Notes: a model not told the origin generated them from the sequence alone. DNA of 64,000 bases from Candidatus Komeilibacteria bacterium (GCA_048538235.1 JBLYPX010000001.1:594136-658135); one strand, 5' to 3'. Positions 5,991 to 64,000 are shown, counted from the stretch's first letter. Numbers and translations: made by a program.

Positions 5991-6022
5991 AGAAAAATAT
6001 CGTTTTGTGTATAAAACGATAT
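5991..6022 (-). terminator. Rho-independent terminator candidate for the three-gene array 23890-6049
   Basis: 10-bp perfect stem atatcgtttt / aaaacgatat (plus 5997-6006 and 6013-6022) with loop gtgtat. On the minus strand it is followed by TTTTCT. It lies 27 nt downstream of the TAG (6051-6049) of ORF 6049-11970. Confidence 0.5.
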
Positions 6023-6048
6023 TCTTTAAAATTATTTTAAATATAATG

Positions 6049-11970: not shown

Positions 11971-12060
11971 TATTATTTAAAGTGTATTAATCCTTGATTA
12001 TATACTTCTTTTACTTGCTTATCTGTAAGGGCGTAGTTGTAGATACGGATGTCGTCCAGT
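11575..12060. repeat. ~485-bp direct repeat spanning a gene junction (3' end of ORF 11973-17723 + 5' 395 nt of ORF 6049-11970)
   Basis: About 99% identical to 17328-17815 (only 3 mismatches noticed in the first 400 nt). Repeat spacing is 5753 bp. Confidence 0.85.
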
Positions 12061-17723: not shown

Positions 17724-17815
17724 TATTATTTAAAGTGTATTAATCCTTGATTATATACTTCTTTTACTTGCTTATCTGTAAGGGCGTAGTTGTAGATACG
17801 GATGTCGTCCATTAA
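17328..17815. repeat. second copy of the junction direct repeat (3' end of ORF 17726-23890 + 5' end of ORF 11973-17723)
   Basis: See 11575-12060. A third partial copy is at 23480-23770. Confidence 0.85.
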
Positions 17816-23890: not shown

Positions 23891-23975
23891 TTATATAATA
23901 AAAAAGCCACGTCAAAAAAACCTTTAACATGGCCCTCTATTTTTAATTTTACGTTGTATATTATAACAGAAAAAT
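23891..23975 (-). promoter_or_regulatory. second copy of the conserved upstream cassette: TATAAT (plus 23960-23965, minus strand) followed by leader hairpin (arms 23906-23916 / 23923-23933) and U6 tract (plus A-run 23900-23905) ending 9 nt before the ATG at 23890
   Basis: Direct reading. About 87% identical to 5913-5996. The hairpin arms are kept complementary via G-U wobbles. Confidence 0.4.
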
Positions 23976-23989
23976 ATGATTTTGTGTAA

Positions 23990-24014
23990 TAAAAAACTAT
24001 TCACAATGAATAGT
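23990..24014 (-). terminator. Rho-independent terminator candidate for the operon ending at 24035
   Basis: 8-bp stem actattca / tgaatagt (plus 23996-24003 and 24007-24014) with loop caa. On the minus strand it is followed by T5-6 (plus A-run 23991-23995). It starts 20 nt downstream of the TAA (24037-24035) of ORF 24035-28141. Confidence 0.55.
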
Positions 24015-24034
24015 TAAAATTTAGGTTTTTTTAT

Positions 24035-35661: not shown

Positions 35662-36135
35662 TTATTCGCTCTTCTGAATAGCCCTAACTATAGCTGAAGT
35701 TTCCTTAAGGTTTTCTATATAACTAACACTTTCAATTGGAACTATCATTTGGTTTCTTGGGCCATGTATTTCGCTCCCTAATTTTATTAAAGCAAGTTCA
35801 GATTCTTTTGGTTGAGGCCCAGACTGTAAAGGCTGTTGATCTTGTAAATAATACACTCCTTCTAAAACTAAAACTTCGCTATTCATGCTAGTAACTTTAC
35901 CAAAATATGTCTCTCCATTATTTACAAACACAGCTTGGTAACCATCCATTATATAGCTATCTCCTGCGGCACTATTTACTAATTTACCTCCAATAAAAAT
36001 CACTATTAAAACCAATATAATAACCCCTATAATTGCAGATATTAACTTTTTTGAGTTATATATTGCTTTAACATTGCCTGATGGTTTATCCATATTTCCC
36101 ATCTGAATTCTTCTGTTTTGAATATCATTTTGCAT
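35662..36135 (-). CDS. small single-pass membrane protein of unknown function (157 aa)
   Basis: One hydrophobic segment (LISAIIGVIILVLIVIFIGG) followed by a ~100-aa soluble domain. It lies between the giant gene (21-nt gap) and the LamG gene (24-nt gap) on the same strand. The true start may be the internal Met (MGNMDKPSG or MDKPSG). Confidence 0.6.
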   Translation of the reverse strand: MQNDIQNRRIQMGNMDKPSGNVKAIYNSKKLISAIIGVIILVLIVIFIGGKLVNSAAGDSYIMDGYQAVFVNNGETYFGKVTSMNSEVLVLEGVYYLQDQQPLQSGPQPKESELALIKLGSEIHGPRNQMIVPIESVSYIENLKETSAIVRAIQKSE

Positions 36136-36156: not shown

Positions 36157-39100
36157 TTATTCTGTAATCGTTTCAATTACTACATCTTCTGTACTATCTG
36201 TAATTATTTCAACATTTGGTGTGTCCTCACCAATTATTACCTCAATGTCTACATTTTCATCTACAACCTCAGTTTCACTAACAGTTTCTTCTACCGGAAC
36301 TTCTTCAACAGCACTCTCATCTACTACCTCTTCAACAACTTCTTCTGGTTGATTAGCAATAAACTCATCTATTTCTTGAACTATTTCTGTGCCAGCAGTT
36401 GGAGTTGAATAGCTTGGTGAACTTACATAAGTTTCATTCACAACATCCTCAGATACTGAATAATCTCCTGAATAAGATAAACTTGGCATAATTATTAATT
36501 CATTCTTACTCTTAGCAACACCCAATACTTGTTTAGCACCGTTTACTGAAGCAATTACTGACAAAGATCTTTGTAAAGCAAGACTATTACCATCATCCAA
36601 TGCTTTAGCAATAGCAGCTTCTTGTTCAGCTAAATCTGCTTGCAATTCACTAGACTCAAGTAAAAGATTGTTTAATTCATCATAATTGTCTGAAAGAGTT
36701 TCTAAATCACCTGGCTTATCTGCTAAGAAATATGCAGCACCTGGTTGTAAACTACTAAAGCCACCAACCTTACCAGATGAAGCTACTTTAATTAAACGAA
36801 TATTATCTCTAATTTCAATTGGAGCGCCTGTTTCTAAATCATAACCAAGTCCAGTTAGATATGCATTTAACTCTTCTTCCGGAATATAGTCATAATCTAA
36901 TATTTCAACAGCAAGACCAATAGCTGGCAAGAAATTATTATCTGATGCCCAAGTTTGACCAATTGTATCTGAGCCAATAATTGCTACTGCATCACCAACT
37001 TCAATAGCACCTTCTGATCCATCCCAATAATTTTGAGTAATAGCTCCAGATAACTCTAAGTTACCTTTAACTTTAATACTACCAGCAACAGATATATTAC
37101 CAAGGAATTCTGCCTTAGCTACTGTAATCTTACCACCAAAGATTGTTTCACCCTTAACAACCACGTTACCAAATTCCTCATATTCCATGATAGATAGATC
37201 AATAACTGTTTCTTCATCATCCGCATCTACGATTGTGATAATACTACCAGTATCTGTTACAACTGGGTTATTGATACTAATTAGAACACTAATCTCACCA
37301 AATTCTGGAACATCTACTTCACAAGAACTTGTATCTACAGTTTCTAATAATAGTGCTAATTCATCTTCTGTATAAACAACTTCTGAATTTAATAGCTCTT
37401 CCTTATATGTATTTTCTATATCCTTAATACAAGAGTTAATTGGGTCAAAGCTTGATAAAGCTACACCCAAAGTACCAGCGCTACGGCTAGTTGCTTTCAT
37501 AGCAATACCTGCTGTAGAAGAAGTTGTAAGTAAATCTCCTTTAGCAATAGCTCCATTTTCTAAACTTACCTTAACTGGAGTAGTACCAGTTAACACTATT
37601 GTTCTTCCTTCTAAATTCTTCTTCAAGATAACTGCTGGATCTGTTGTAACCACACCAACAATATTTGTTGCATTTTTTCTAAGTGATTTAACTGTCATAA
37701 CTTCACCACTATGATCTGTTACAACAATATCTCCAGCTTCTGGCAAACCTTCATAATTACACACACCGTCTACACAATTAGCATATTCATAGACATTAGT
37801 ATCTTCAACAGTCATGTCTAAAACTGTCTTAACATCATCTATTGTTAATTCTCTAACTGTCATATTTTCTGCAACATCTCCACGACTATCATTAGTTTGA
37901 GCATCGCTATCCACAAACTTATCTTCTACATCTTCTGAAGCAACACCATAATTCTCATAATTAAAGGTTACTTTAGAAATCTTATTGAAAGCAACTGAAT
38001 TTGCTGTAGCAAATGGTAAAATACTATTTAAGTTTATATTTGTACTTGAAGATACAATATTCTGTCCAGCAGTTACTACATTATTTGCTGTATTTATTGC
38101 AGTGGCTGCAATCTGAGTTGAACCATCTTCATCTATAATTAGTGCCTTAGCTTGGCCACTAGCTACATAGCCAACCAAAACCTGACCACTATTTAATGTT
38201 GAAGCATTAATCTCTGTTGTTGCTGAGTTATTAATTATTGTTTCACCAATCACACCAACACCACTTTGGTTATATATTACAAAGTTGGCAGAAGAATCTG
38301 CACCATCAATATATGTAATAATATTATTACCATTACCAAGCATAGCAACGCTTATATGTGCTGGTGCAAAATTATTAAATGTCTGTGTTGTGATTACATT
38401 TAATGAATTATCTAAAATACTTATAGCTCCAACTGTATCTGCATAAGCAATCATTAGATTTCCATTAAGCATTCTAATAATATCTATGTTACTTGTTGAA
38501 ACCGAATTAAATACTACTTCTGGTGTAATAATATTTCCTTGGTAATCTACTTCTACGACTGTACCATAATTACTATTACCCTTATCTTCAAATGCTATAA
38601 CCACACTATCATTATATGTTGTTGTTAAACTAATATTATCTGTAGAGCCTGCATTAAATGTACTTGGACCAGATACTACTCCAGCCTGATTAATTGTAAC
38701 AACTTGACCTGTTCCAGTAACACCGCTTCTGTATGCAACCATTATATTATCATTATCTAAGTATGTAGCTGCTATACTTGATGCTTGATTGTCATAAATT
38801 ATTCCAGTCTTTGTTTCATTGTCTGAATAAATTGCATATTTTGCTTTACCGTCTGCATTATCTATATATCCCACAAATACATTACCGTTTGCAAACTCTT
38901 CAGCTACAATTTCATCTGCACTATCTGGTAATAAGGTGACAGTTGAATTTACAGTCATAACACTATCGTCGATATTATCGACAATTGTCAAAGATTGACT
39001 GTCTACATTGGCCGTGTAGTCGACTGTCACCTGCTTGCCAGTCCCTATGCCAGGGATTATATAAAGGAACGAATTAATCTTATTTGCTTCATACACCCTT

Positions 39101-60100: not shown

Positions 60101-63100
60101 AATCTTGTTGGTATTTGAGAGCCAATAGTATCGTCTGCAACAGCTCTAATTTGAGCACCCGTTTTATCTACACCGGCAACCTTGCCACCGAAATAATAAC
60201 TACCTAATAAATCTCCAGGCAAAGTCTGACTAGATGTTAATCTAGACATAACTCCATTTCCTTCAACCTGTAATGCAAAAGCGGGTGCTGTAGTACCAAT
60301 ACCTACATAACCTGCATTAAAGTAAGAATTTCCATCACCTAATATAGCTACCGTATCTGTACCATTACCTCTTAATCTTAATCTTGCATCTCCTGTAGTA
60401 GGTTCGTCTACTAATAGAATATTATTTGTTCCACCATTTTCTCTAACCTCTATAGCTGTTCCAGAACCAACACCTGGAGATTTTATTTCTAACTTTCCTT
60501 CAGGATCTGTCACACCAATACCAACGTTTGCACTCTGAGTAATTCTAAATATTTCCCCACCGTAAACGCTATTATCTATGGCAAAGTCTGTGCCTGTTCT
60601 TCTAAGATCCCAATAAGCGTCTAATGTGTCACCAGCTCCAGACTCTGCTAATCTTAGTCTAGTGTCTGTTGATGCCCCTGCTGTTTCTGTATCTCTAATT
60701 GTTAATATTGGATCACTAGCCACAATCTCCATCTTTGTATCTGGTGTAGCAGTTCCTATACCAACATTACCAGAACCCATAACAGTAACAAAGTTTGTAG
60801 CGCCTTCACCGATCTGTAATATTTCATCAGCATCTCCAACAGCTCCAGCAGTAGCTATTCTAATTGCTTCTGTAGAAATACCTCCTGTTGGTAATGATGA
60901 TTGAATCAATATATTACCACCAGATGCTTGAGCGCCAACAAGGGATGTAAGTATTTGTAATTGTTCCCCAGAAAAACCAATTGTTGAATTAACATAATTA
61001 GAACCTGCCCCTGATGTTCCAGCTGTATCTGAAATATTTAGTGAAGCTGGTCCTAAGTATAGATCTTGCCATCTCTTAGCTGCTGAACCTAAGTCATATG
61101 TATTGTCTGTGGCTGGTGTAATATTTCCAGCTATTGTTTGACCTCCGTCAAAGTAAGCCATGCCATCAACTTCTAATGTTCCTTCAATATATGCATCTTC
61201 TCCGTTTAATGTTTGGCTAGGAGTTCCATTACCAACCTTTAAATTACCAGTTAATACATTAACAAGGTCTGTGGCATTACCTGTTGTTAAAGATATATTA
61301 TTCGCCCCATCAGAAGTAACATTAACTCCAGCACCAGAAAGTGTAGAAGAAGCATCTGAATCAATATTTACAGCCCCAGTAGCATCTACACCATATGTAC
61401 CACCTACTGTAGCTAAGTAATTAGCTGTTGTTGTTAAATTAAAGGTAGTACCATCTATGGTTATTGTATCGTTAGCATTAATATCTATATTTCCTGATGA
61501 AGTGAAATCTAGTTCTCCATCTGCTAGTGTTCCACCATCTGTGGTAAGAGAAATCTTAGTACCACCTACATCTACGGTTGTATCTGAGTCTACATTTACT
61601 GTTCCTGCTGAATCTACTGCATAAGTACCTGTATTTGTTAAAGTGTAGTTTACTCCATCTATTGTTATATTTCCTACAACGTTTACATCATAGTCATCTG
61701 CTACGTTTAGAGTAAGGTCTCCATTGGTAGCTCCTCCAGTAGTAAATGTCATAGAACCGTCTGTGGTTGCTATGTTTTGAGAACCAGATGTTAATAGGTC
61801 ATATGTTCCTGTTACGTCTATATCTAAGTTAGCACCTGCGTTTAGGTCAAAGAGGCCGGCGGAGGTTGCAATTAAGTTACCTGAAGTTAAAGTAGATAAT
61901 GTTAAATTACCAGAAGTAGCACTGACATTAGAATTTCCTGTACCATCTATACTAAATGTTCCAGAAGATAGCATGTCATAATTTCCAGTTACATCTATAT
62001 CTAAGTTAGCACCTGCATTAAGATCGAAAAGGCCGGCAGAAGTAGCTATCATACTACCAGTTGTAATGGTAGATAGTGTTAAATTATTATTAGTTACAGA
62101 TAAATTAGAAGCTGCTGCGCCATCAATTGAATAACCAGCTGTTGTATCTATGACTAATGTTGCTGAATCAATATCTATTGCCGCACCAGCATTGCTTATA
62201 TCTATATCTGTTACTCCATCACCAGTTAGGGCTAATATACCACCATCAGAAGTAACATTAACTCCAGCACCAGAAAGTGTTGAAGAAGCATCTGAATCAA
62301 TATTTACAGCCCCAGTAGCATCTACACCATAAGTACCACCTACTGTAGCTAAGTAATTAGCAGTAGTTGTTAAATTAAAGGTAGTACCGTCTATGGTTAT
62401 TGTATCGTTAGCATTAATATCTATATTACCAGATGAAGTGAAGTCTAATTCTCCATCTGCTAGTGTTCCACCATCTGTTGTTAAAGATATCTTTGTACCA
62501 CCTACATCTACGGTTGTATCTGAGTCTACATTTACTGTTCCTGTTGAATCTACTGCATAAGTACCTGTATTGGTTAAAGTATAATTTACTCCATCGATTG
62601 TTATATTACCTACAACGTTGACATCATAGTCATCTGCTACGTTTAGAGTAAGGTCTCCATTGGTAGCTCCGCCAGTAGTAAATGTCACAGAACCGTCTGT
62701 TGTTGCTATGTTTTGAGAACCAGATGTTAATAGGTCATATGTTCCTGTTACATCTATATCTAAGTTAGCGCCTGCGTTTAAGTCAAAGAGGCCGGCGGAG
62801 GTAAGTATCATTGAACCGCTAGTTGTTGTTTCTAGAGTTAAATTTTGAGAGTCTGTAGAAATATTTGCTGTACCAGATAAATACAATGGGAAATTAAAGT
62901 CAAAACGATCATTAGTATTATCCCAGCCAAATGTTGCGTTTGTTCCAGGAGTTCCTCTTTCAAACACAATGTTCATAGCCTCACCGTCATTAGTAGTGTT
63001 ATCTGTATTAATAACAAAGCTTTCAGCAGTTGTTCCTAAAATACCAGAACCAGGTGCGATCAAAGTACTGGTATAAACATTTCTCCAACGATGAGTTGGT

Positions 63101-64000
63101 GTACCAAGATCATATAGTTCACTCTCAAGAGGAATAATATGACCATTTCTTAAATAGTCAGAAGCAGATGTACCAGCTGCAATACTTTCTGTCATACTTG
63201 ATGTTGTATCTGCCATAGCAGTAATAGTGGTACCAGCCACAGTATTGTAGTGATTAGCTGTACCGTACAAACGGTTAAAGTATGAATATACAGCTCCACC
63301 ACTTGTAGAGATATATATATCGTTTACAGAAGCAACGATTGTTGAATAACGAACAACAGCTGCTCCACTGGCTCCACTTTGATGTACGCCATTAGCTACC
63401 TCTGAAACACTTACTCTTTCGATAATAGGTGAACCAGTCGTTACTAAAATACCAGTTGACTGACCAGCCGTACCGACAATAACAAGATCTTCTAACTTAG
63501 GCGAGCTAGTCCCCGTGCTCACAACTGCCTTGCCGGTAGTATCGCCTGTCAAAGACAAAGCAAAACCCCTCAAGGTGCTGTTAGAAGATCCAGTTATTAC
63601 CGTATTATCTGTTTGAGTAATAAATGTTGAATTACTATTACCTACTGCTACTACGTCGACATATTCTTTCATAGTAACAGATTCATCATAGACGCCAGGG
63701 AAGACTTCAATTACATAAGGATTATTACTTGATGCATCTGTAATAGAATTTAAAGCTTCAGTGATAGTGTCATAATGACCATCGTTTCCTTTAGCTACAT
63801 AGATTGTATTCTTTGGTTTATCTAATCTTGTGAATGTTCCTGCATTAACAATCTTTGTAGAATCTAAAATGTCGCTACCAGAATTAATAGTAGCGCCTAA
63901 GGCAACGTTAATATTTCCAGTGCCAGCTAAAACATTAAAGTATGAATCTACTGTTCCAGCATCTACATCTATATCTGTAGTAGCTGCTGTAATAGCAGAA
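36157..64000 (-). CDS. giant repetitive fibre/adhesin-like protein, >9,280 aa (N-terminus beyond the right edge): beta-helix-like N-terminal part, dozens of GNVGIGTTxP / YDLGSxxxRW modules, internal segmental repeats, beta-propeller-like region, acidic E/V-rich C-terminal tail
   Basis: Single ORF of 27,516 nt in the track. Hand translation of 63673-63999 in the same frame gives SAITAATTDIDVDAGTVDSYFNVLAGTGNINVALGATINSGSDILDSTKIVNAGTFTRLDKPKNTIYVAKGNDGHYDTITEALNSITDASSNNPYVIEVFPGVYDESVT before MKEY with no stop, so the gene is open to the window edge. The motif NTIYVA..G...TI.EAL......NPYVIEVFPGVY resembles the start of pectin-lyase-fold beta-helix domains. The stop is TAA at 36159-36157. Confidence 0.9.
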   Translation of the reverse strand, partial: SAITAATTDIDVDAGTVDSYFNVLAGTGNINVALGATINSGSDILDSTKIVNAGTFTRLDKPKNTIYVAKGNDGHYDTITEALNSITDASSNNPYVIEVFPGVYDESVTMKEYVDVVAVGNSNSTFITQTDNTVITGSSNSTLRGFALSLTGDTTGKAVVSTGTSSPKLEDLVIVGTAGQSTGILVTTGSPIIERVSVSEVANGVHQSGASGAAVVRYSTIVASVNDIYISTSGGAVYSYFNRLYGTANHYNTVAGTTITAMADTTSSMTESIAAGTSASDYLRNGHIIPLESELYDLGTPTHRWRNVYTSTLIAPGSGILGTTAESFVINTDNTTNDGEAMNIVFERGTPGTNATFGWDNTNDRFDFNFPLYLSGTANISTDSQNLTLETTTSGSMILTSAGLFDLNAGANLDIDVTGTYDLLTSGSQNIATTDGSVTFTTGGATNGDLTLNVADDYDVNVVGNITIDGVNYTLTNTGTYAVDSTGTVNVDSDTTVDVGGTKISLTTDGGTLADGELDFTSSGNIDINANDTITIDGTTFNLTTTANYLATVGGTYGVDATGAVNIDSDASSTLSGAGVNVTSDGGILALTGDGVTDIDISNAGAAIDIDSATLVIDTTAGYSIDGAAASNLSVTNNNLTLSTITTGSMIATSAGLFDLNAGANLDIDVTGNYDMLSSGTFSIDGTGNSNVSATSGNLTLSTLTSGNLIATSAGLFDLNAGANLDIDVTGTYDLLTSGSQNIATTDGSMTFTTGGATNGDLTLNVADDYDVNVVGNITIDGVNYTLTNTGTYAVDSAGTVNVDSDTTVDVGGTKISLTTDGGTLADGELDFTSSGNIDINANDTITIDGTTFNLTTTANYLATVGGTYGVDATGAVNIDSDASSTLSGAGVNVTSDGANNISLTTGNATDLVNVLTGNLKVGNGTPSQTLNGEDAYIEGTLEVDGMAYFDGGQTIAGNITPATDNTYDLGSAAKRWQDLYLGPASLNISDTAGTSGAGSNYVNSTIGFSGEQLQILTSLVGAQASGGNILIQSSLPTGGISTEAIRIATAGAVGDADEILQIGEGATNFVTVMGSGNVGIGTATPDTKMEIVASDPILTIRDTETAGASTDTRLRLAESGAGDTLDAYWDLRRTGTDFAIDNSVYGGEIFRITQSANVGIGVTDPEGKLEIKSPGVGSGTAIEVRENGGTNNILLVDEPTTGDARLRLRGNGTDTVAILGDGNSYFNAGYVGIGTTAPAFALQVEGNGVMSRLTSSQTLPGDLLGSYYFGGKVAGVDKTGAQIRAVADDTIGSQIPTRLEFILQQSSSSSTPDITAMTLNHDGEVGIGTTNPTHKLEIETDNIGASENGLSVEGYLNSRMMTWNYLNNGIVTDWLNSAGTTVNRIRSYGDSYFNAGNVGINTDSPDARLESLDASSPQLRLTHTNDVLYANFQVDNTGDLTLDITGAAGTGQLILGDTDTIAIGGAAGQVYNVIGDAVTGMGHGLNSDDDLYIEGVLEVDGDAFLDGNLTVAGDTTIVGTTAYESDIDMQNNLILNIGDAATDFTAGGGLNLTSDLAVNGGNINSSTNLTLNPTGALNLGGANTTSVVTPNTVATYSINGTGLTTFNVATLNSNPATLNLATSNQANNVNIGTGTAIDTINIGTGGTAADDINIGDALADVDITGASQIVAGTGDSLTLTGNATSTWSTTAGNLNLTSASALNLTQAASSTWTLNNAVNALNIDANTLSIDALNNRIGIGVTAPEAKLEINGLGVGGVGLDVETNTGYEIKFSGTTTANIYQSVSGQDFYLTTAGGNILMTGGNVGIGLTNPTSKLQLPLENDAATPTLSFGDGDTGFYEAGDDNIVLSVGGTAVWQALTTQFRATNSDGPMMVKETSSYTNPVIIPHRGDDTTGIGGDGANNLSLIAGAWEGLRVVEGTEDYLQITNDNWIKSVDSAGTGTVNMFKVNSSDQVELGAALNIGTFVADEDAGAITFFDMPVSSTPTAGTEMSATFKIDGDNILKVYAEADGTGGIQNPAVNVTGDLNVTGDYTLTGDFLPSVNDTYNLGSDSLRWANIYLGGETIHVGASTSDEGTLAYTSATDVLTMNSIGNIALETDGGNVGIGTTAPAELLEISTATGTGTLNPTVLRISTTSTGSDWDTANNWGGIEFYSADATRVQASINAVPYSTAGDNTNITFNAGSANQERMRITASGNVGVGTTSPVYKLSIEDSSSTWAQRILNSSATGEGLLVRASDSSNNKRVFQLADKDDTKILTVTGNGFVGIGATAPDDPLHVESTETYIAKFKTTANANQVVSMEAPSGYNTNLYFFEGSTAEAGIRWDGGGDRMEFKVGNTATDAMTILDNGNVGVGTTSPGSYGLNVAAGSSGAIAQFQQGNNGGDVYSGITNTYGGASSIDETATLYLGATNAVYGAYVRAYAESDFQSVANRDGGIKLGVRKDGTWADGLTIDADANVGIGTTSPASILEVRDETANAAVKIVTGNTLYSAIDFGDTNDDNVGQVRYNHNTDVLGFTTNDVKDRLAIDSAGEVGIGLTNPSEVLDIFDSGNADTVLQIRSQDSAVTTANEGVRIRFAESDETFLGQVGYTYRSASQYGTHLSSADNIHFEVNGSTSAAVTIDTSSNVILNTATASLKLPSQNDADTPTLAFGDGDTGIYETSPNVLSYAFSTQPEAFISATGFGFYGTNYPRVWNEAPTSINPVFSFESDDDTGIGRAAADQLSLIAGAWEGLRVVEGTEDYLQITNDNWIKSVDSAGTGTVNIVKVNTSDQIEFGGTIVGGTYEFAEDSGAVTFVNMPVSSTPAAGTEESYSLSIDSEPILKVYSEADGTGGIQNKAVNITGDLNVTGDVAMTGTTTFTGDLLPATDNTYDLGSAAKRWQDLYLGPASLNISDTAGTSGAGSNYVNSTIGFSGEQLQILTSLVGAQASGGNILIQSSLPTGGTSTEAIRIATAGAVGDADEILQIGEGATNFVTVMGSGNVGIGTTVPGQNLEIANDSVASMLLNGTGANADARIMFHSTGSTEQFSIGLDESRNIFAISETADTLNTNPRFVIDGSGYVGIGTTAPNQDLVVSGIADTSSAALKLEAAANLDTYIQLFGDRDWQIQVDGDGSIGTADEFHIYDNTAGATRLLIDTVGNIGIGTTQPEDNVKLDIYATGVNSVVDVESNADGYNQTIRFRQGGVNMATIGYDDTIDAATFSYGNFANNHLNIDSTGQVGIGATAPQQSLHITDAGPAIQLERTGTGLGSWIQSVTYASSANYGSLYFTPSLATGDFVIRNSSSVDRVYIDTSSGNVGIGPDTTPDYLLDVQGTLNADGAITGGSTADIASWVRGETLRSEGQLYLNFDGADADSQIYFYEDSSTTGESIIWSNTNDRFEFSDGVLVDGDTDEVQLTVQGHSTQTSDIFVVEDSVGSNLFDVDTAQANFNVPTSFNAAGDVSIAYDLVFTNPTASYIKSQAPLYIQTESPSGNLDLTLSAANSGSVIIDDNFEVTGTTTYSGNLDMEGNNIVDVNSIYVDNIYDRDRGDVAIELGDEYLRINDGGTFSSGIYIGTSDLKMSSGDLLVGSNGGTGAIRLFANNNGTNYITVDGTSGGNSWFNTGGNIGIGTTSPDTSLDVTSSGANGIVINQRTDAATSSANLFFADNAGQTVGLKTVSGRFGIYTGATVGSSSGSEKVSVLTTGEVGIGTTTPDKILHVSTASDTQVKLTAGATNNVGLIGYQGSNLMFNMGYEDSSDTVRLNYGTWSAANGIAINSSGYVGVGTTNPSDLFTIEGSGGSSQGLELKNAYDKFEIYFQDNTDNTDLNIGYSGSGGADIQLQYDGDIILAEDSGGNIGIGITNPASKLDIDTGSNANGLRLRGTAETAEIADLFVNSSGALVLSTVAGTDSQAYIDLRSEDDTTGVLIRQSSGAGTSTYANLYVTDASDDYLSINLNSGTDGNAFNVTASDRVGIGTNAPSSKLFVNGLTDEVQLTVQGHSTQTNDIFVVEDSSGADLFTVSETQSTSYVPFSVEGTGTLSVANGINLTDDDSNTIESYGTFYLATSAGTPKDIVLQPGGGGEVGIQSDLVITGATDFGTITGDLLPTVDDSYDIGSDTYEWQDLWIDGTANIDTLAATTMSGTLTMGANAIDGTSYDITGAGVITGTQINGDNLRLDGNTLSSTNTNGAITINPNGTGGINIGTTNSARTINVGTGTAIDTINIATGGGADAVSIGTTAANVAITDANWSITGAGVMSGTQINGDNLRLDGNTLSSTDTNGSITIDPNGSGTLTLGSADVGAIAINSNTTIGIGTSVTNAITLATDGTGTAEVVLPAGSIDSTEILDSTIVGGDVADDTLDFVDFQDTMDLDAAWVLNTGGNGRNITFNEDSYDIDFRVESNGDANALFVDGGTNRVGIGTNAPSSRLFVDGLADEVQLTVQGNGTQTNNIFVVEDSAGADLFTVSETQSTSYVPFSVEGTGTLSVANGINLTDGTSNTIESYGTFYLATSAGTPKDIVLQPGGGGKVGIQSDLVITGATDFGTITGDLLPTADDSYDIGSATYEWQDLFVDGTATIDTLVVDGNSGTAINISGTGFGTDINLQNGETISNDTNGTILLTATTTATSSNLNVGGNVDIDGNALSFGESEQTIQDVGDYLTVWDTSSYFFNFYTAGTQAGDLQVDTNTLYVDASANMVGIGTTAPTAKFDVIGEIQGDSLDIDGAVDVDAGTGAITFDSTTTGTFDVTTAAGQISLNSATGEIDLTTGNTTAAAIDINATGAAGGIDMDTTNGPIALTAGNATNGNISASAAGTLLLDSAGVLELNSSGAAISIGNDVVDQAINIGTGAAARTITLGNVTGATTLDVNTGTGGFLVDTTGAGPISLDAPTGLINLTTGNTTAAAIYLNASAGGIDIDLGNGAGDDFNVDGNVLVVESDTNSVGIGTNDPNAILHVYKGDSTANIYSSTYSALALENNNHTMIDFMSPADKQGGFYFNDPDQTAMAELVYSHSTDSFNFGVRPAIGSAIDTVFSLSASQATSYVPFSMEGTGDVTIANDLFFSNATSSTISSEAPLYITAGAVGSNTNLVLEGRGTGKVYVDDNFEVTGTTTLGGGVSISGDFLPSTDNTYDLGSAALRWAEVNVGPGSVNVYNAASDANPIVKTSSSGLEFGVGGGSPLDIRLYRDSANVLRTPDSLTIDTDLTISGGDLNVASAAFNLANAATTLNVGSTNIARTINIGTGTAVDTINVATGGGADAVSIGTTAANVAITDANWSISGAGAASFDSTLTVGGTTTLNGNVAIGNSTADTVSVNTGAWTFSNDTNFVLSGGVNGLSLDGSTFSVDATNDRVGIGLTNPAWPLSIKTSTTGAQNILGLTADDNGNVLVVGKDAEDDGYVNVYSGTAQTIQLHSNASSYINGGSLGIGITNPASKLDIDTGSNTSGLRLRGTAETAEIADLYVSSSGALILSTVAGTDTNAYIDLRSENSTLGLLIRESDGTGTGTYANLYVKDATDDYLSINLNSGTDGDALVVTAADEVGIGTSDPTSKLMVNGTSDQIQTIIQGYSTQTNDIFVVEDSSGADLFTVSPTQSTSYVPFSVEGTGTLSVANGINLTDNTSNTIESYGTFYLATSAGTPKDIVMQPGGGGEVGIQSDLTVTGAGAITGNVGIGSITADDPLDVAGVIDSTGGYEVDNATIISGDGSTIYTRGASVNKIGTANSSGIGIDALNSGDWDLLLYESKTYTSSLDLGYNGSAIIDTYDTNETLTINANGAGGINIMNSGTGTVSIGTTNAGVQITDPQWSVTNAGAASFASMASGGAVSGTTGTFSTSVVTPLVQGGAASGGDLTLESTSHATKGHIFFGSDSNSAYDDVNNRLGIGITAPVGPLQVHQATAGSTSYIHLTQDGTGTAATDGLLVGVNATEQAIFWNRENTDVRIATNNLDRMTIEAGGNVGIGITNPGYKLDVAGTASATTLTLDGTSGTAIGISNTGITTDINLQNGETIDNDTDGTILFTATTTKTSGNLYVGTSGTGTITSGLINGQTISSAADFTGTMAIAGKLTVNDNVLIDGDADEVQLTIKGHTTQTSDILKITDSSDNDLFTVSPSQATSYVPFSMEGTGDVTIANDIYMSNATSSTISSKAPLYITAGDVATNTNLVLEGRGTGKVYVDDSFEVTGTTTMGGGLNLTGNIYTPGTVRADSGVYVGDTEYFWSDTNGRIATANDFYVTGGSGNTYLYSANTYLGASSGDNIYVRGNTISGDSWSITGPGVITGTQLNIDNLRLDGNAITSTNTNGNITINANGTGDINLDSNTLYVDQSANRVGIGVTAPAAPLDVVGEIQGDSLDIDGAVDVDSTTSNIDFTATTGTIAFTTANTTAAAIDINATGAAGGIDMDTTNGPIALTAGNATNGNISISAAGTLALSSGDWGIDTTGIAANMGTYNGQTISSAANFTGTMAVTTSITSPLIQGSTASGGDLTLASTSHATKGHIFFGSDGSSAYDDVNNRLGIGTSAPARSLQVVGSATPGDNLFRVAGGANQGHVTIYMAAADDRNAVIESQRDLNIIPGQYVGIGTTVPSALLDVAGEIQGDSLDIDGVVDVDAGTGAITFDSTTTGTFDVTTAAGQVSLNSATGEIDLTTGNTGTSAIDINVTGTGGDLDVDVNDAITIDSKSFSIDGAIASNVSVTGNALTLSTIASGALNVTSAGTVNISSANSGVITLDGDSYVSVQPSDANYGLLLYESDGTGTGIAANFYVTDATDDYLSINVGSVQDGDALVVTAANEVGVGTSNPTAKLDVVGEIQGDSLDIDGAVDVDAAANAITFDSTTTGTFDVTTATGQIGLNSATGRIYLTTADTTADAIYLNASAGGIDVDLGNTAGDDFNVDDNTLVVESDTNSVGIGTSDPRSKLEIYDSTVNVGGESTDLTFGTAANGGTAQIGALLDGATDQTSTGLIFRTVQEEFGSLTDRMIIESTGNVGIGTTNPAYKLDVNGSSRVSSLLVDGANDVLISSGDIDLDTGNYIGVSASAGRIYYQTSNLNVLGADFAVDTTDLFVDVDVNEVGIGTSAPNTTLHVAGKSTFGSAITPTATEDEDIINILSGSNATGGTNGITFWENTSGYGMSMGYDGTGSGDSNAIRFYDTNAAHLMTLEAGGNLGIGITNPSVKLHVNGSATINSSGNDTINIGGSGVDTINIGNSTGVDTIYIGTGGGVDDIQIGSGTNGLILSSASWDVSGIGYADFNRLDVNDIRLDDNEITTETADTDLLLLPTSERVGINTSSPGATLDVAGTLKTSGVGDVTIANDIYMANGTASGIQSKSTLTITGGDIGTNSNVVLAASGSGSVVIDSSDRLVSSLAYTTGVTPTQTLYVDSAGNIGKNGSSIRFKENIVDMEDVSWLYDLRPVNFEYKESFNNGIGSGVKYYGLIAEEVETVNPLFVGYDQSGLPDSVKYTALISPMLNAIQEQSTELSGVLSMVDYTTGNISTESALTLSSDNSYVQVDDELVIGSTNVGIGSIVSDENGLTIKSDAGAAGQVRGISLELDDNAGASKFNINNSNNSTVLTIDSTGSIDMSGSLNTEMSAMSEMFAVTIDNQGNLPEAGDVVVMSNTANTLVKSNAQYQESAVGVVVDNSAIKLNSSVAGRAIALAGKVTIKVTNDNGAINNGDYLTTSSRNGYAMKATSAGPVVAKALSSFNSATGTIEAFVHVSWYDPLSDNLLVAGTLTAGGDTELQGGVILGNATDDLIEVKGTFKSGLQLNQDNMYDLGSTTNRWASGYFATAVKVDEMELSNNQIQTTNDLTLKSTSGNLTLQSDAADSIITLKPSNSTSYLEVSNTDDLTSLIAKNGYLRVGMGAIADNVSTENDLLVTGSVEIDGDLYVEGDILAPKLTEAIKKQIKSNLPIESAKVYWEQMQESTIIESTTTEVSTEIMDNNLSLVAYVDSLDSNKGKYRIYNDGSVVAKGVFNQGTTSNIATTAISNGSVAIAYTDDSNSSYGTMVIISSNGEIATDETVFNSAATSSLDIAELTNGYLFIAYNDNGVGKYAIVSENNIIIKSETQLINSSISDINVTQMGNKVLVSYVDNGELDYGKTSLIDLDTYTHTTATFASVAISNITSTSLTNGEAMIVYSDTAGKAITIDQSQNITNTATIDASAISNVDMVVNNDRVIVAYQAVDNKTYYKVLDNEGNSLNAATEITSTVNGLSITSDNIGNLSISYIDNSTEYIKQTHLNTALGYKSASDNLIWYDLDIETDSADTIVLKAGDKYSTPIDLTTGNNTIDLGYISYNFTSVAGDNYVYLPGLGFGAKDIRSITDSEGRVYEANKINSFLYIIPGIGTGKQVTVDYTANVDSQSLTIVDNIDDSVMTVNSTVTLLPDSADEIVAEEFANGNVFVGYIDNADGKAKYAIYSDNETKTGIIYDNQASSIAATYLDNDNIMVAYRSGVTGTGQVVTINQAGVVSGPSTFNAGSTDNISLTTTYNDSVVIAFEDKGNSNYGTVVEVDYQGNIITPEVVFNSVSTSNIDIIRMLNGNLMIAYADTVGAISILDNSLNVITTQTFNNFAPAHISVAMLGNGNNIITYIDGADSSANFVIYNQSGVGVIGETIINNSATTEINASTLNSGQVLVGYVASGQAKALIIDEDGSTQIAATAINTANNVVTAGQNIVSSSTNINLNSILPFATANSVAFNKISKVTFNYENYGVASEDVEDKFVDSDAQTNDSRGDVAENMTVRELTIDDVKTVLDMTVEDTNVYEYANCVDGVCNYEGLPEAGDIVVTDHSGEVMTVKSLRKNATNIVGVVTTDPAVILKKNLEGRTIVLTGTTPVKVSLENGAIAKGDLLTTSSTAGIAMKATSRSAGTLGVALSSFDPINSCIKDIENTYKEELLNSEVVYTEDELALLLETVDTSSCEVDVPEFGEISVLISINNPVVTDTGSIITIVDADDEETVIDLSIMEYEEFGNVVVKGETIFGGKITVAKAEFLGNISVAGSIKVKGNLELSGAITQNYWDGSEGAIEVGDAVAIIGSDTIGQTWASDNNFLPAIGLAVEILDYDYIPEEELNAYLTGLGYDLETGAPIEIRDNIRLIKVASSGKVGGFSSLQPGAAYFLADKPGDLETLSDNYDELNNLLLESSELQADLAEQEAAIAKALDDGNSLALQRSLSVIASVNGAKQVLGVAKSKNELIIMPSLSYSGDYSVSEDVVNETYVSSPSYSTPTAGTEIVQEIDEFIANQPEEVVEEVVDESAVEEVPVEETVSETEVVDENVDIEVIIGEDTPNVEIITDSTEDVVIETITE
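38110..40260 (-). other. beta-propeller-like region of the giant protein (two runs of ~45-50-aa blade-like repeats)
   Basis: Periodic pattern such as SVAIAYTDDSNSSYGTMVIISSNGEIATDETVFNSAATSSLDIAELTNGYLFIAYNDNG... and SVVIAFEDKGNSNYGTVVEVDYQGNIITPEVVFNSVSTSNIDIIRMLNGNLMIAYADTVG..., repeated about 12 times. Confidence 0.4.
47096..52140. repeat. triplicated 285-410-bp block inside the giant gene (47096-47380, 50398-50810, 51733-52140; ~90-95% identity)
   Basis: Direct comparison. Encodes ...DIFVVEDSSGADLFTVSETQSTSYVPFSVEGTGTLSVANGINLTD.TSNTIESYGTFYLATSAGTPKDIVLQPGGGG.VGIQSDL... three times. Further shorter repeats of ~120-190 bp occur at 44135-44300 / 49763-49925, 44817-44935 / 49655-49770 and 48241-48380 / 51301-51440. 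Confidence 0.75.
55043..55404. repeat. ~360-bp near-perfect internal repeat in the giant gene (copy A)
   Basis: About 99% identical to 60754-61116 (4-5 mismatches). Encodes ITPATDNTYDLGSAAKRWQDLYLGPASLNISDTAGTSGAGSNYVNSTIGFSGEQLQILTSLVGAQASGGNILIQSSLPTGG.STEAIRIATAGAVGDADEILQIGEGATNFVTVMGSGNVGIGT. Confidence 0.85.
60754..61116. repeat. copy B of the ~360-bp near-perfect repeat, 5.7 kb from copy A
   Basis: See 55043-55404. Confidence 0.85.
61307..62802. repeat. two ~560-bp units (61307-61866 and 62243-62802) at a 936-bp period, ~95% identical, inside the giant gene
   Basis: Direct comparison of the two stretches. They encode a duplicated ~190-aa module (...DLNAGANLDIDVTGTYDLLTSGSQNIATTDGS.TFTTGGATNGDLTLNVADDYDVNVVGNITIDGVNYTLTNTGTYAVDS.GTVNVDSDTTVDVGGTKISLTTDGGTLADGELDFTSSGNIDINANDTITIDGTTFNLTTTANYLATVGGTYGVDATGAVNIDSDASSTLSGAGVNVTSDG). 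Confidence 0.8.

What the first reader, a model, noticed from the sequence alone, without database searches (positions are those of the whole stretch)
36157..64000. Giant ORF (>9,280 codons, 5' end outside window) with fibre-like modular architecture
The ORF track lists 9,171 aa starting at a Met at 63672. The same frame stays open through position 63999, so the protein is larger and its true N-terminus lies beyond the window. The sequence is Thr/Gly/Ser/Asn/Asp-rich. More than 20 occurrences of ..NVGIGTT.P..KL.V.. alternate with Y[DN]LGS...RW...Y motifs. I associate both motifs with phage tail-fibre and other trimeric beta-helical fibre proteins, but that is from memory and unverified. The sequence ends in a strongly acidic E/V-rich tail (ITE, 36160-36430). 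Two ~90-aa beta-rich modules are duplicated around the propeller-like region (~40980-41230 and ~37440-37720, sharing GVV..D.A..LK.N..GR.I.L.G...VKV...NGAI..GD.LTTSS..G.AMKATS). A protein this size encoded as a single ORF in a low-GC genome is unusual.
Basis: partly seen in the sequence, partly recalled or inferred. Interest (0 to 1): 0.75.

Follow-up and report, generated by a model that had tools for sequence, protein, structure and literature searches.

The report
Giant fibre-like surface protein, Patescibacteria
This is a real, uninterrupted gene for a protein of more than 9,280 residues, most likely from an ultra-small symbiotic (CPR/Patescibacteria) bacterium. It is built from phage-tail-fibre-type modules and probably forms a very long three-stranded surface fibre for grabbing other cells, with a self-cleaving "chaperone" domain unusually placed about 1,900 residues before the end.

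Summary
The minus-strand frame is open for 9,280 codons from the stop at 36157 to the window edge (chance about 1e-317). The GIGT motif is strongly enriched (20-37 copies, depending on the pattern, against fewer than 1 expected). It aligns onto the "capping loop" of the solved Bdellovibrio MAT fibre tip Bd3182 (8OJN, E 2.6e-6), a trimeric beta-helix related to phage S74 fibres. PHROG tail-fibre families match at up to 2.5e-26.

The gene is cellular, not phage. The closest relatives are Patescibacteria (Komeilibacteria) genes flanked by tRNA synthetases and ribosomal genes. The rest of the window encodes eight membrane-anchored LamG/DUF2341 surface proteins. A 76%-identical relative shows about 1,000 further N-terminal residues (HTH-like segment, hydrophobic anchor, collagen-like stretch), so the full protein is about 10,300 aa.

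One Peptidase_S74 domain has an intact Ser/Lys motif (S7364, K7369). It lies 1,917 aa from the C-terminus, against 81-138 aa in 26 relatives. The conserved ~1,830-aa cassette behind it contains two beta-propellers, two beta-modules, a tip-like domain and an acidic tail. Relatives carry this cassette without S74.

Best reading: a trimeric, cell-anchored host-attachment fibre, a new variant of MAT/phage-type fibres. Whether S74 cleaves is untested.

The parts
36157..63999 (-). Visible part of the giant ORF: 9,280 codons plus the stop at 36157-36159. The 5' end lies beyond the window.
63109..63999 (-). aa 1-297: last copy of a repeated ~220-aa module (VAKG..GHYDTITEAL...). It occurs in 3 or more tandem copies in relatives P0006 and P0007. 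JGI names P0006 'pectin methylesterase-like'; the fold was not verified here. It ends in the first YDLG..RW motif.
   Evidence: no Pfam hit
61210..63069 (-). aa 311-930: N-proximal repeat region (SG.L.L.S.G..DINAG.N.D.DVTG type). It contains an internal duplication, aa 401-599 and 713-912, at 94% identity. The same module is found in ~887-aa proteins that sit in a phage-like context.
41911..61209 (-). aa 931-7363: the stalk. It is a mosaic of duplicated fibre modules carrying the [VI]GIGT..P...L capping-loop motif (36 of the 37 [VIL]GIG sites; the 37th is at aa 7494, in the cassette), often 73-94 aa apart. It is homologous to phage tail-fibre PHROGs and to the Bd3182 and Bd2133 MAT fibre tips.
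54256..54651 (-). aa 3117-3248: the tile that aligns along nearly the whole Bd3182 tip crystal structure (8OJN residues 2-140).
41662..41910 (-). aa 7364-7446: Peptidase_S74 intramolecular-chaperone domain (SSIRFKENI...YYGLIAEEVE...LNAIQEQ). Putative catalytic Ser7364 is at nt 41908-41910 and Lys7369 at nt 41893-41895.
   Evidence: Pfam PF13884, 29.4 bits against a cutoff of 22; motif; 30 homologues
36160..41661 (-). aa 7447-9280: conserved C-terminal cassette. It is colinear at 44-62% identity with Komeilibacteria and other CPR proteins (P0001, L004, L005, P0103, P0106).
40888..41346 (-). aa 7552-7704: beta-module 1 (G.V.IKV..NGAI..GDYLTTS..GYAMKAT). It is weakly similar to phage minor-capsid, cement and Peptidase_G2 families.
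39403..40275 (-). aa 7909-8199: beta-propeller 1, made of ~50-aa blades (6-7 blades).
   Evidence: AF2 pLDDT 75-90; Foldseek tandem-propeller matches
38926..39402 (-). aa 8200-8358: insert between the propellers. The model has low confidence here and the fold is unknown.
38143..38925 (-). aa 8359-8619: beta-propeller 2.
It is flanked by the protein's only four Cys (aa 8742, 8747, 8857, 8893).
36415..37047 (-). aa 8985-9195: conserved C-terminal 'tip-like' domain with a helical insert. The fold is unresolved.
   Evidence: conserved in P0001, P0002, P0103 and P0106; AF2 failed, pLDDT 33
36160..36414 (-). aa 9196-9280: acidic E/V/D/I/T tail (28 D/E, 0 K/R). It contains the ...DIEVIIGE motif with which relatives terminate.
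35662..36135 (-). 157-aa single-pass membrane protein, 21 nt downstream of the giant ORF. It is 53% identical to the gene that follows the Komeilibacteria homologue, but the family is widespread in Patescibacteria, so it is a lineage marker rather than a proven partner.
1..35637 (-). Eight tightly packed genes, one of them running off the window start. They encode N-terminally anchored multi-LamG surface proteins of 1,176-2,054 aa. Five (the partial one included, by sequence motif) carry DUF2341, and several have fibrinogen-C/COLFI-like or CBM_4_9 segments. This is the genomic context, a surface-protein island.

Best explanation
The ORF encodes a giant cell-surface fibre of a Patescibacteria (CPR, Komeilibacteria-like) bacterium. 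It is assembled from modules of the phage-tail-fibre / Bdellovibrio MAT ('mosaic adhesive trimer') kind.

Inferred mechanism, in steps:
1. The missing N-terminus (about 1,000 aa, seen in a 76%-identical relative) supplies a cytoplasmic HTH-like segment, a hydrophobic membrane anchor, a helical region and a collagen-like GXY stretch.
2. Three chains then intertwine into a triple beta-helical stalk of about 7,000 residues, punctuated by GIGT capping loops. Scaling from Bd3182 (922 aa, about 550 Angstrom) gives roughly 0.4-0.5 micrometre, longer than a CPR cell. This length is an extrapolation.
3. The S74 intramolecular-chaperone domain at aa 7364-7446 nucleates and proof-reads the trimerisation of the stalk. 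Because its Ser/Lys dyad is intact, it probably self-cleaves at Ser7364.
4. The conserved 1,830-aa C-terminal cassette (two beta-propellers, two small beta-modules, a tip domain, an acidic tail) is the distal, target-binding end. In this protein it would become a separate 1,917-aa product if cleavage occurs.

Function: recognition of and attachment to host or prey cells by an episymbiont, alongside the neighbouring LamG lectin-like surface proteins.

What is shown: the continuous ORF, homology to MAT and phage fibres, the S74 domain and its motif, the propeller fold, the cellular CPR context, and the mosaicism. What is inferred: the trimer, the anchor, the length, the cleavage, and the adhesin role.
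For: The ORF is real and continuous.

Stalk homology: PHROG tail-fibre families match at 2.5e-26 and 1.3e-19. The PDB entries 8OJN (Bd3182) and 8OND (Bd2133) match at 2.6e-6 and 1.3e-4, with the capping loop aligned. The paper defines these as trimeric intertwined beta-helices with such loops, displayed on the cell surface and used for prey recognition (PMC10769870).

S74: the Pfam score is above the gathering threshold. The motif SSIRFKENI is identical to that of five S74 homologues, and an S/K spacing equivalent to SDxxxK is present.

Trimer cues: S74 in the window, and a collagen-like repeat in relative P0006 (Pfam Collagen, 27.4 bits).

Anchor: the relative L003 begins with HTH_17 (E 8e-5) and has a hydrophobic segment at aa 141-159 (KD 1.65).

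Cellular CPR context: the best hits are Komeilibacteria, Woesebacteria and Uhrbacteria. Relatives are flanked by IleRS, RecO and TGT and by ArgRS, SmpB, IF3 and L20. L005 is a Komeilibacteria MAG with the same cassette next to LamG genes. The window has no phage capsid, terminase or tail genes, only LamG/DUF2341 anchored proteins.

Literature: very large surface-targeted proteins with ConA and fibrinogen-C domains in Patescibacteria are regarded as host-interaction candidates (PMC13059738).

Propellers: AF2 plus Foldseek.
Against: No experiment bears on any of this. The trimeric state, surface display and cleavage are all inferred.

The N-terminus is not in the window. The relative that supplies it is split by frameshifts, and its hydrophobic segment is only borderline for a TM helix.

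The cassette-bearing relatives whose upstream junction is visible (L004, L005, P0103, P0106) lack S74 at the junction; P0001 is cut off before it. In those relatives the cassette works while covalently attached. Cleavage here could therefore be detrimental or absent, or the gene could be a recent fusion.

The Bdellovibrio MAT N-terminal domain is not seen. The C-terminal tip could not be modelled. The cassette has no phage homologue and no Pfam or NCBIfam family, so its binding role is a guess from position and fold. The propeller fold matches are generic, at about 10% identity.
Confidence: 0.6

Rival explanations
1. Same fibre, but the internal S74 domain does not release anything. It acts only as a trimerisation or folding node (or is a relic of a recombination event), and the protein stays one chain with the propeller cassette as its covalently attached distal tip.
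For: The four relatives whose junction is visible (L004, L005, P0103, P0106) carry the cassette covalently joined to upstream fibre without S74. In P0103 a beta-module sits where S74 sits here, which suggests interchangeable junction modules. In this protein the coiled-coil after the S74 core is shorter than in relatives.
Against: The Ser-x4-Lys dyad and the flanking motif (SSIRFKENI) are identical to those of canonical C-terminal S74 domains. In every tested S74 protein cited, this dyad gives autocleavage (Bd3182 S782).
Confidence: 0.25
2. It is a tail fibre or host-recognition protein of a (pro)phage or other mobile element that infects or resides in a CPR bacterium.
For: PHROG tail-fibre and baseplate hits. 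Weak tblastn hits to cyanophage tail-fibre and 'chaperone of endosialidase' genes. The beta-modules resemble phage capsid accessory families. The N-proximal repeat module occurs in proteins in a phage-like context.
Against: The 64-kb window has no capsid, portal, terminase or tail-tube genes. All its other genes are TM-anchored LamG/DUF2341 proteins. Homologous genes in three relatives abut housekeeping genes or the same LamG island. The relative's N-terminus has an HTH-like segment and a hydrophobic anchor rather than a baseplate-attachment domain. The cassette has no hit in 50,697 phage records. A 10,000-aa fibre is far beyond known phage fibres (my own knowledge).
Confidence: 0.07
3. The giant ORF is an assembly artefact. 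Either it is a chimera of several fibre genes joined through shared repeats, or its repeat copy number is wrong.
For: There are many internal duplications, including DNA repeats of 366 nt at 98% and 560 nt at 95%. Related contigs from JGI 3300045909 are fragmented by frameshifts.
Against: The longest exact repeat is only 234 nt and all others are 68 nt or shorter. The frame is kept for 27.8 kb. Both ends of the visible ORF are colinear with independent relatives: P0006 and P0007 at the N-terminal end, and P0001, L004, L005 and P0103 at the C-terminal end. P0103 also spans the region on both sides of the S74 site.
Confidence: 0.05
4. It is a secreted effector or polymorphic-toxin-like delivery protein. 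The fibre is a delivery stalk, and S74 cleavage releases a C-terminal payload that damages the target cell.
For: A self-cleaving domain lies upstream of a large C-terminal region. The acidic C-terminal tail has a conserved terminal motif that could be an export signal.
Against: No toxin, nuclease, peptidase, lipase or glycosidase family was found in the cassette with Pfam, NCBIfam or PHROGs. The cassette is conserved rather than polymorphic among relatives (44-62% identity, colinear). No immunity-like gene is evident downstream.
Confidence: 0.03

Closest known systems
Bdellovibrio bacteriovorus MAT (mosaic adhesive trimer) fibres, S74 subgroup, e.g. Bd3182 (PDB 8OJN/8ONB/8ONC; Caulton et al. 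2024, PMC10769870)
   Same: It is a cellular (non-phage) surface fibre of a bacterium that lives on other bacteria. It shows direct sequence homology to the trimeric beta-helix tip, with the capping-loop motif aligned. It has an S74 chaperone/protease domain with a Ser/Lys motif, a mosaic modular build, and variable non-fibre domains at the distal end.
   Different: It is about 10 times longer (over 9,280 aa against about 900-1,100 aa). S74 is internal, 1,917 aa from the end, instead of terminal. The relative's N-terminus is an HTH-like segment, a hydrophobic anchor and a collagen-like stretch, rather than the conserved ~130-aa beta-rich MAT N-domain after a signal peptide. The host lineage is Patescibacteria, which is monoderm-like, so there is no outer membrane. 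The distal cassette has tandem propellers, which are not reported for MATs.
Phage tail fibres and spikes with a C-terminal intramolecular chaperone (Peptidase_S74): K1F endosialidase, T5 L-shaped tail fibre pb1
   Same: S74 domain and catalytic motif. A triple beta-helix with capping loops upstream of S74. PHROG tail-fibre homology.
   Different: The gene is not in a phage genome. The size is far greater. In 26 of 26 relatives with a recognisable motif the catalytic Ser is 81-138 aa from the C-terminus, while here about 1,830 aa of folded domains follow the S74 domain.
Myelin regulatory factor (MYRF/MyRF), a eukaryotic membrane protein with an internal S74-type ICA domain
   Same: It is the only well-known case of an S74-type domain placed internally, so that trimerisation-dependent self-cleavage splits the protein into two functional parts. 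The capping-loop motif is also found there.
   Different: It is a eukaryotic transcription factor. There the membrane anchor is C-terminal and the N-terminal part is released; here the anchor is inferred to be N-terminal and the C-terminal part would be released. No homology exists outside the S74 region.
Very large surface proteins of Patescibacteria (e.g. Absconditicoccaceae; PMC13059738) and giant genes of other episymbiotic or predatory bacteria (Omnitrophota; bioRxiv 10.1101/2023.11.21.568195)
   Same: Ultra-small host-dependent bacteria devote large genome fractions to huge, surface-targeted, adhesion-domain proteins. The neighbouring LamG/ConA and fibrinogen-C-like genes match that description.
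   Different: The described proteins are characterised by FN3, integrin, ConA and Ca-adhesin repeats. A phage-fibre/MAT-type triple beta-helix with S74 was not mentioned in the papers I could search. The Omnitrophota giant-gene study does not discuss tail-fibre or S74 content.

Membership tests
Peptidase_S74 / intramolecular chaperone auto-processing domain (PF13884) | Sequence match to the family profile above the curated threshold | tested here: met
   29.4 bits against a gathering score of 22, E 9.7e-7, profile positions 1-55 of 58. 30 homologues were found, most of them annotated PF13884.
Peptidase_S74 / intramolecular chaperone auto-processing domain (PF13884) | Catalytic Ser...Lys dyad (SDxxxK-type motif) | tested here: met
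   S7364-S-I-R-F-K7369. SSIRFKENI is identical in P0085, P0089, P0096, P0099 and P0100. The motif definition comes from PMC10769870.
Peptidase_S74 / intramolecular chaperone auto-processing domain (PF13884) | Domain at the extreme C-terminus, so that cleavage removes only the ~100-150-aa chaperone | tested here: not met
   The Ser is 1,917 aa from the C-terminus here, against 81-138 aa (median 104) in 26 relatives.
Peptidase_S74 / intramolecular chaperone auto-processing domain (PF13884) | Trimerisation-dependent autoproteolysis | not testable with these tools
   This needs expression of a fragment with and without the S7364A change.
MAT (mosaic adhesive trimer) fibre superfamily (Bdellovibrio) | Intertwined trimeric beta-helix segments with V-G-G/N-pi-x-x-P-x-x-x-L-type capping loops | tested here: met
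   Met at sequence level only. 8OJN matches at E 2.6e-6 and 8OND at E 1.3e-4, with the loop aligned. There are 20 copies of [VI]GIG[TI]..P...[LIVM] against 0 in shuffles. The trimeric state itself was not tested.
MAT (mosaic adhesive trimer) fibre superfamily (Bdellovibrio) | Conserved ~130-aa beta-rich N-terminal domain directly after a signal peptide | tested here: inconclusive
   The N-terminus is outside the window. In the 76%-identical relative it is an HTH_17-like segment, a hydrophobic segment, a helical region and a collagen-like stretch. That does not resemble the MAT description, but it was not compared with a MAT N-domain sequence.
MAT (mosaic adhesive trimer) fibre superfamily (Bdellovibrio) | Terminates either in S74 or in an alternative adhesive tip domain | tested here: inconclusive
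   It has both: an S74 domain followed by a large non-S74 cassette. This arrangement is not described for the 21 MATs.
MAT (mosaic adhesive trimer) fibre superfamily (Bdellovibrio) | Display on the cell surface and a role in prey or host recognition | not testable with these tools
   Inferred from context only.
Phage tail fibre | Homology to phage tail-fibre protein families | tested here: met
   phrog_18345 at 2.5e-26, phrog_9942 at 1.3e-19, phrog_3269 and phrog_1171. Weak cyanophage tblastn hits.
Phage tail fibre | Encoded in a phage or prophage with virion genes | tested here: not met
   The window holds only LamG/DUF2341 anchored proteins. Relatives are next to tRNA synthetase, ribosomal and SmpB genes.
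Beta-propeller (tandem) | Repeated 4-stranded blades closing into propellers | tested here: met
   AF2 pLDDT is 75-90 over aa 7909-8199 and 8359-8619, all beta. The top Foldseek PDB hits are tandem propellers (2ymu, 4nsx, LRP6) at E down to 6.7e-16 and probability 1.0, but about 10% identity. No sequence family was assigned.
Patescibacteria (CPR) chromosomal gene | Closest homologues and synteny lie in CPR genomes | tested here: met
   P0001 and P0007 (Komeilibacteria), P0002 (Woesebacteria) and P0003 (Uhrbacteria). The small TM neighbour has 93 related loci, nearly all titled as Patescibacteria lineages, and the best is a Komeilibacteria MAG named 37_78. The exact source contig was not found in any collection.

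The most novel reading that the evidence does not exclude
The protein is a self-processing 'polyprotein' fibre. A half-micrometre, membrane-anchored triple-helical tether is folded from its internal S74 node. Autocleavage at Ser7364 then liberates, or leaves non-covalently docked, a 1,917-aa tandem-propeller module. One gene would thus yield both a host-reaching tether and a deployable binding or effector unit. This would be a bacterial counterpart of MYRF-type internal S74 processing and the longest phage-type fibre known, used by an ultra-small episymbiont to capture hosts.
Probability: 0.25. Interest if true: 0.8.

Novelty: new variant of a known kind. Interest (0 to 1): 0.6.

Why it matters
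How CPR/Patescibacteria find and hold on to their hosts is largely unknown. Type IV pili are the only tested factor, and only in Saccharibacteria.

This locus suggests that some CPR bacteria use the same solution as Bdellovibrio, namely phage-derived trimeric fibres. Here the fibre is scaled up about ten-fold, to a length exceeding the cell itself, and it is embedded in an island of lectin-like LamG proteins that fills at least 64 kb of a roughly 1-Mb genome.

The internal S74 domain offers a simple experiment: does a recombinant fragment trimerise and cut itself? The answer would show whether bacteria use MYRF-like internal self-processing to split a giant precursor.

The conserved propeller cassette, shared by proteins of 1,800 to over 10,000 aa, is a candidate host-recognition unit with no known family.

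Tried and rejected
- The source contig could not be found. Exact 60-mer scans of viral, genome and metagenome contigs gave nothing, and an exact-protein look-up of the 157-aa neighbour also gave nothing. The true start therefore could not be read directly. It was inferred from relative L003/P0006.
- Pfam on ten 928-aa tiles gave only S74 plus sub-threshold or spurious hits (DUF4178, DUF7591, GvpD), which I disregard. NCBIfam gave nothing at all.
- Whole-protein phmmer against PDB gave a single hit. One call failed because of a frame error.
- AF2 of the C-terminal tip (aa 8880-9215, 3-sequence alignment) failed with pLDDT 33, so no fold search was run on it.
- The profile of the beta-module gave only weak hints: PDB 6qyy at E 0.47, XM1_gp53 at 3.9e-5, Phage_cement_2, Peptidase_G2. 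I therefore call it 'phage capsid-accessory-like' only tentatively.
- The idea that the 157-aa membrane protein is a dedicated partner was rejected. The family is found across Saccharibacteria and many other CPR lineages, and in L005 it is not adjacent to the giant gene.
- A phage origin of the locus was rejected on context (see the rival explanations). The cassette has no hit in phage records. Viral fold matches to the propellers are generic.
- Literature searches found no description of S74 or tail-fibre-type giant proteins in Patescibacteria. The absence of evidence is limited to the open-access library searched.
- There is no collagen-like GXY run and no TM-like segment within the visible 9,280 aa.
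Full report
1. OBSERVATION

The window is one long run of minus-strand genes. Translating the minus strand from position 63999 down to the stop at 36157-36159 gives 9,280 codons without a stop. The first Met listed by the ORF finder (63672) is therefore not the start. From the region's base composition a random codon is a stop with probability 0.076, so an open frame of this length has a chance of about 1e-317. The two other frames of the same strand hold 865 and 1,120 stops.

The protein is rich in Thr, Gly, Ser, Ala, Asp and Asn and has 4 Cys.

The GIGT-type motif is real:
- VGIG: 28 copies, against 0.74 in shuffles.
- GIGT..P: 20 copies, against 0.02.
- [VI]GIG[TI]..P...[LIVM]: 20 copies, against 0.
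- [VIL]GIG: 37 sites, often 73-94 aa apart.

The second motif, LG[ST]...RW, is also non-random (6 copies against 0). But it occurs only at aa 298, 970, 2049, 2874, 5112 and 7748, so it does not alternate with GIGT.

The acidic tail holds up (28 D/E and no K/R in the last 85 aa). So does the duplicated ~90-aa module (aa 7608-7685 and 8781-8859, 47% identity).

Many other internal duplications exist, for example aa 401-599 and 713-912 at 94%, aa 938-1098 and 2842-3001 at 83%, and aa 3901-4095 and 5467-5661 at 76%. At DNA level the longest exact repeat is 234 nt and the next is 68 nt. The only near-identical stretches are 366 nt at 98% (55040-55405 and 60752-61117) and 560 nt at 95% (61307-61866 and 62243-62802). 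Both pairs are in register with the reading frame. Continuity of the ORF is therefore credible. Copy number at those two pairs is the only assembly question.

2. WHAT THE STALK IS

Pfam finds one significant domain, Peptidase_S74 ('chaperone of endosialidase'), at aa ~7364-7419 (29.4 bits against a cutoff of 22). PHROGs match tail-fibre families over several tiles: phrog_18345 at 2.5e-26 and phrog_9942 at 1.3e-19, plus tail-spike, tail and baseplate families. tblastn against 50,697 phage records gives only weak (27-35%) hits, to cyanophage tail-fibre and 'chaperone of endosialidase' genes.

Against the PDB, the only sequence match of the whole protein is 8OJN. With a 161-aa tile the match is E 2.6e-6, and 8OND (Bd2133) follows at 1.3e-4.

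8OJN, 8ONB and 8ONC share one 152-residue chain. The length fits the crystallised Bd3182 tip (residues 632-782), which the paper says was solved in three forms, so I take these entries to be that tip. Bd3182 is a member of the 'mosaic adhesive trimer' (MAT) family of Bdellovibrio (PMC10769870). The paper describes:
- an intertwined trimeric beta-helix with 'capping loops' of consensus V-G-G/N-pi-x-x-P-x-x-x-L, shared with phage T5 pb1, K1F endosialidase and MyRF;
- S74 domains with an SDxxxK motif that self-cleave (Bd3182 S782);
- display on the predator surface, and glycan binding by one member.

In the alignment the window's IDTVGNIGIGTTQP lies on Bd3182's IDDVGRVGVGTTAP. The trimeric state itself is inferred, not shown.

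3. THE S74 DOMAIN AND ITS POSITION

The sequence ...GKNG-SSIRFKENIVDMEDVSWLYDLRPVNFEYKE...YYGLIAEEVETVNP...YTALISPMLNAIQEQ... has Ser7364 and Lys7369 in the SxxxxK spacing. It is the only such site in the protein.

Thirty homologues of this region were found. Twenty-nine are 225-530 aa proteins with the S74-region match, mostly carrying PF13884 and some carrying YadA-like head repeats. The remaining one, P0076, matches only the segment after S74. In all 26 with a recognisable motif, the Ser lies 81-138 aa (median 104) from the C-terminus. Here it lies 1,917 aa from the end. The internal placement is therefore atypical for this subfamily. The known precedent for an internal S74-type domain is eukaryotic MYRF (mentioned; otherwise my own knowledge).

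4. THE C-TERMINAL CASSETTE

The 1,856 aa after S74 have no Pfam, PHROG or NCBIfam family and no phage tblastn hit. They are nevertheless conserved.
- P0001 (Candidatus Komeilibacteria, partial): 48% identity over 94% of the query.
- L005 (Komeilibacteria CG_4_10_14_0_8_um_filter_37_78): 49% over aa 7465-9275.
- L004 (JGI metagenome 3300045909): colinear over aa 7447-9274.
- P0103 (3,438 aa): 44% over aa 7442-9216.
- P0106 (1,822 aa).

The cassette contains the following parts.
- (a) Two copies of a ~150-aa beta-module (...G.VPVKV..NG.I..GD.LTTSS..G.AMKAT...). It recurs 1-4 times in other CPR fibre-like proteins (P0002-P0005). It weakly resembles phage XM1 gp53 minor-capsid (6 of 11 copies, best 3.9e-5), Phage_cement_2 and Peptidase_G2 families.
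- (b) A sixth YDLGS..RW motif.
- (c) Two arrays of ~50-aa blades. AlphaFold2, on a 2-sequence alignment, folds them into two all-beta domains with pLDDT 75-90 (aa 7909-8199 and 8359-8619). A low-confidence insert separates them. Foldseek matches them to tandem beta-propellers (2ymu, Utp21, LRP6) at E down to 6.7e-16 but about 10% identity. Viral matches are equally generic. The blade repeat has 588 relatives at E of 1e-3 or better among 1.84 billion representatives.
- (d) A conserved tip-like domain (aa ~8985-9195) that could not be modelled (pLDDT 33).
- (e) The acidic tail.

5. MOSAICISM AT THE JUNCTION

None of the cassette-bearing relatives has S74 (no BLAST hit).
- L004/P0076 have generic fibre sequence directly upstream of the cassette.
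- L005 and P0106 have a beta-module plus a helical linker.
- P0103 matches the window on both sides: its 1160-1244 matches aa 7246-7330 at 66%, and its 1546-3333 matches aa 7442-9216. Between them it has a beta-module plus a fibre segment where the window has S74.

The window protein is therefore a mosaic in which an S74-terminated stalk is joined in frame to the conserved cassette.

6. THE MISSING N-TERMINUS

P0006 is 76% identical to window aa 1-301, and window aa 1 aligns with P0006 residue 750. Its contig (L003) shows the gene starting about 270 codons further upstream. The order there is:
- MPKQ...;
- an HTH_17-like segment (E 8e-5, below the Pfam cutoff);
- hydrophobic segments (best 19-aa Kyte-Doolittle mean 1.65 at aa 141-159, which is borderline);
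- a helical region;
- a collagen-like run, GEPGERGIQGERGEQGIQGEKGEQGIQGEPGEPGE (Pfam Collagen, 27.4 bits against a cutoff of 27.2);
- three or more copies of the module that opens the window.

In L003 the gene is split by two frameshifts, and in L004 by many. These are either assembly errors or decay.

If the window gene has the same layout, about 1,000 aa are missing and the full protein is about 10,300 aa. That figure is an inference.

7. WHOSE GENE IT IS

The neighbours of the homologues are housekeeping genes: MerR, IleRS, RecO and TGT downstream in L001, and L20, IF3, SmpB and ArgRS upstream in L003.

The 157-aa membrane protein just downstream in the window is 53% identical to the gene after the Komeilibacteria homologue. 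Its family occurs in 93 related loci, nearly all titled as Patescibacteria lineages. The best is the Komeilibacteria '37_78' MAG, whose name suggests a G+C content close to the window's 32-40%. Because the family is so widespread, it marks the lineage rather than a specific partnership. In L005 it is separated from the giant gene by a LamG gene.

The remaining 36 kb of the window encode seven complete and one partial protein with an N-terminal TM anchor and 4-6 Laminin_G_3 domains each. Five of them (the partial one included, by its sequence motif) carry DUF2341. Some have fibrinogen-C/COLFI-like, CBM_4_9 or neurotoxin-receptor-binding-like segments. There are no virion genes.

Large surface-targeted proteins with ConA and fibrinogen-C domains are described in Patescibacteria as candidates for host interaction (PMC13059738). 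The giant-gene survey of Omnitrophota does not mention tail fibres, S74 or LamG and names CPR only in its introduction.

8. MECHANISM

Most likely this is a cell-anchored, trimeric, phage-type fibre used by an episymbiotic CPR bacterium to reach and bind other cells.

Bd3182 (922 aa) is modelled as a fibre of about 550 Angstrom. Scaling to about 7,000 stalk residues gives roughly 0.4-0.5 micrometre. This is an extrapolation.

The S74 domain would nucleate and check trimer folding. With its dyad intact it probably cuts at Ser7364. I give this about even odds, because the cassette works covalently attached in relatives. Cleavage would produce an anchored fibre and a 1,917-aa propeller cassette.

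The rivals are a non-cleaving S74 node, a phage fibre, an assembly chimera and a toxin-delivery protein. They are weighed in their own section.

9. NOVELTY

The building blocks are known: S74 fibres, MAT fibres, propellers, and large CPR surface proteins. The size, the CPR setting, the internal S74 and the conserved propeller cassette make this a new variant of a known kind rather than a new category.

Noticed in passing
window 36160-36414 (aa 9196-9280); also the C-termini of P0001, the L005 ORF 18-5900 and P0103: Relatives all end exactly in ...(D/E)IEVVIGE or ...DDSVVIGE after a long acidic tail. The window protein has DIEVIIGE followed by 22 extra residues (DTPNVEIITDSTEDVVIETITE) that look like a partial re-duplication. 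A conserved extreme C-terminal motif after an acidic, K/R-free tail could be a sorting, export or anchoring signal.
   Followed up: partly
window 37321-37776 (aa 8742, 8747, 8857, 8893): The only four cysteines in 9,280 residues flank beta-module 2. Cysteines are present at similar places in P0001 and P0103, which suggests two conserved disulfides in an otherwise Cys-free protein.
   Followed up: no
window 1-35637, minus strand: This is an island of eight consecutive, tightly packed genes for TM-anchored multi-LamG proteins (five with DUF2341). One runs off the window start (MVRIIKKIK...AEWYNDGWAYRQ...). Together with the giant ORF, the entire 64 kb is surface-protein coding. L005 (Komeilibacteria) has a smaller version of the same island.
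   Followed up: partly
window 6049-11970 and 11973-17723: These two adjacent DUF2341-LamG genes share an identical first ~110 aa (68% identity over ~620 aa) and then diverge. This indicates recent tandem duplication or gene conversion at the 5' ends.
   Followed up: no
beta-modules: window 40888-41346 and 37369-37827; P0002-P0005, P0103, P0106: In relatives the module starts with a conserved D-[YLF]-A-E-x-[YF] motif, which is degenerate in both window copies. 2 of 11 copies weakly hit Peptidase_G2, the 'IMC autoproteolytic cleavage domain'. In P0103 such a module sits where the window has S74. The module might be a second kind of intramolecular-chaperone or trimerisation unit that is interchangeable with S74.
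   Followed up: partly
L003 9196-14364 and L004 26-5730 (JGI metagenome 3300045909): The closest relative's giant gene is broken into many ORFs, with reading frames cycling regularly (2, 1, 3, 2, 1, 3...). This is either systematic indel errors in that assembly or a decaying pseudogene. It contrasts with the intact 27.8-kb frame in the window.
   Followed up: partly
L085 3862-6525 (P0016) and about 20 similar 887-890-aa proteins (P0014-P0030): A tight family of ~887-aa proteins shares the window's N-proximal repeat module (aa ~300-930). The one context examined looks phage-like: many small unannotated ORFs and a GH25/PG_binding endolysin-like gene. The module probably circulates between phages and CPR fibres.
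   Followed up: partly
L003 9196-10020 (relative's N-terminus): A giant extracellular protein begins with a cytoplasmic HTH_17-like (excisionase/MerR-type) segment ahead of its hydrophobic anchor. This is an odd combination, and I recall similar N-termini on other CPR membrane proteins. Its role (DNA binding, or merely a folding or topology cap) is unknown.
   Followed up: no
window 35662-36135: The 157-aa single-pass membrane protein has no Pfam family. It belongs to a family found in at least 93 related loci, nearly all titled as Patescibacteria lineages (Saccharibacteria, Komeilibacteria, Liptonbacteria, Harrisonbacteria and others). It is an unannotated, lineage-typical small protein.
   Followed up: partly
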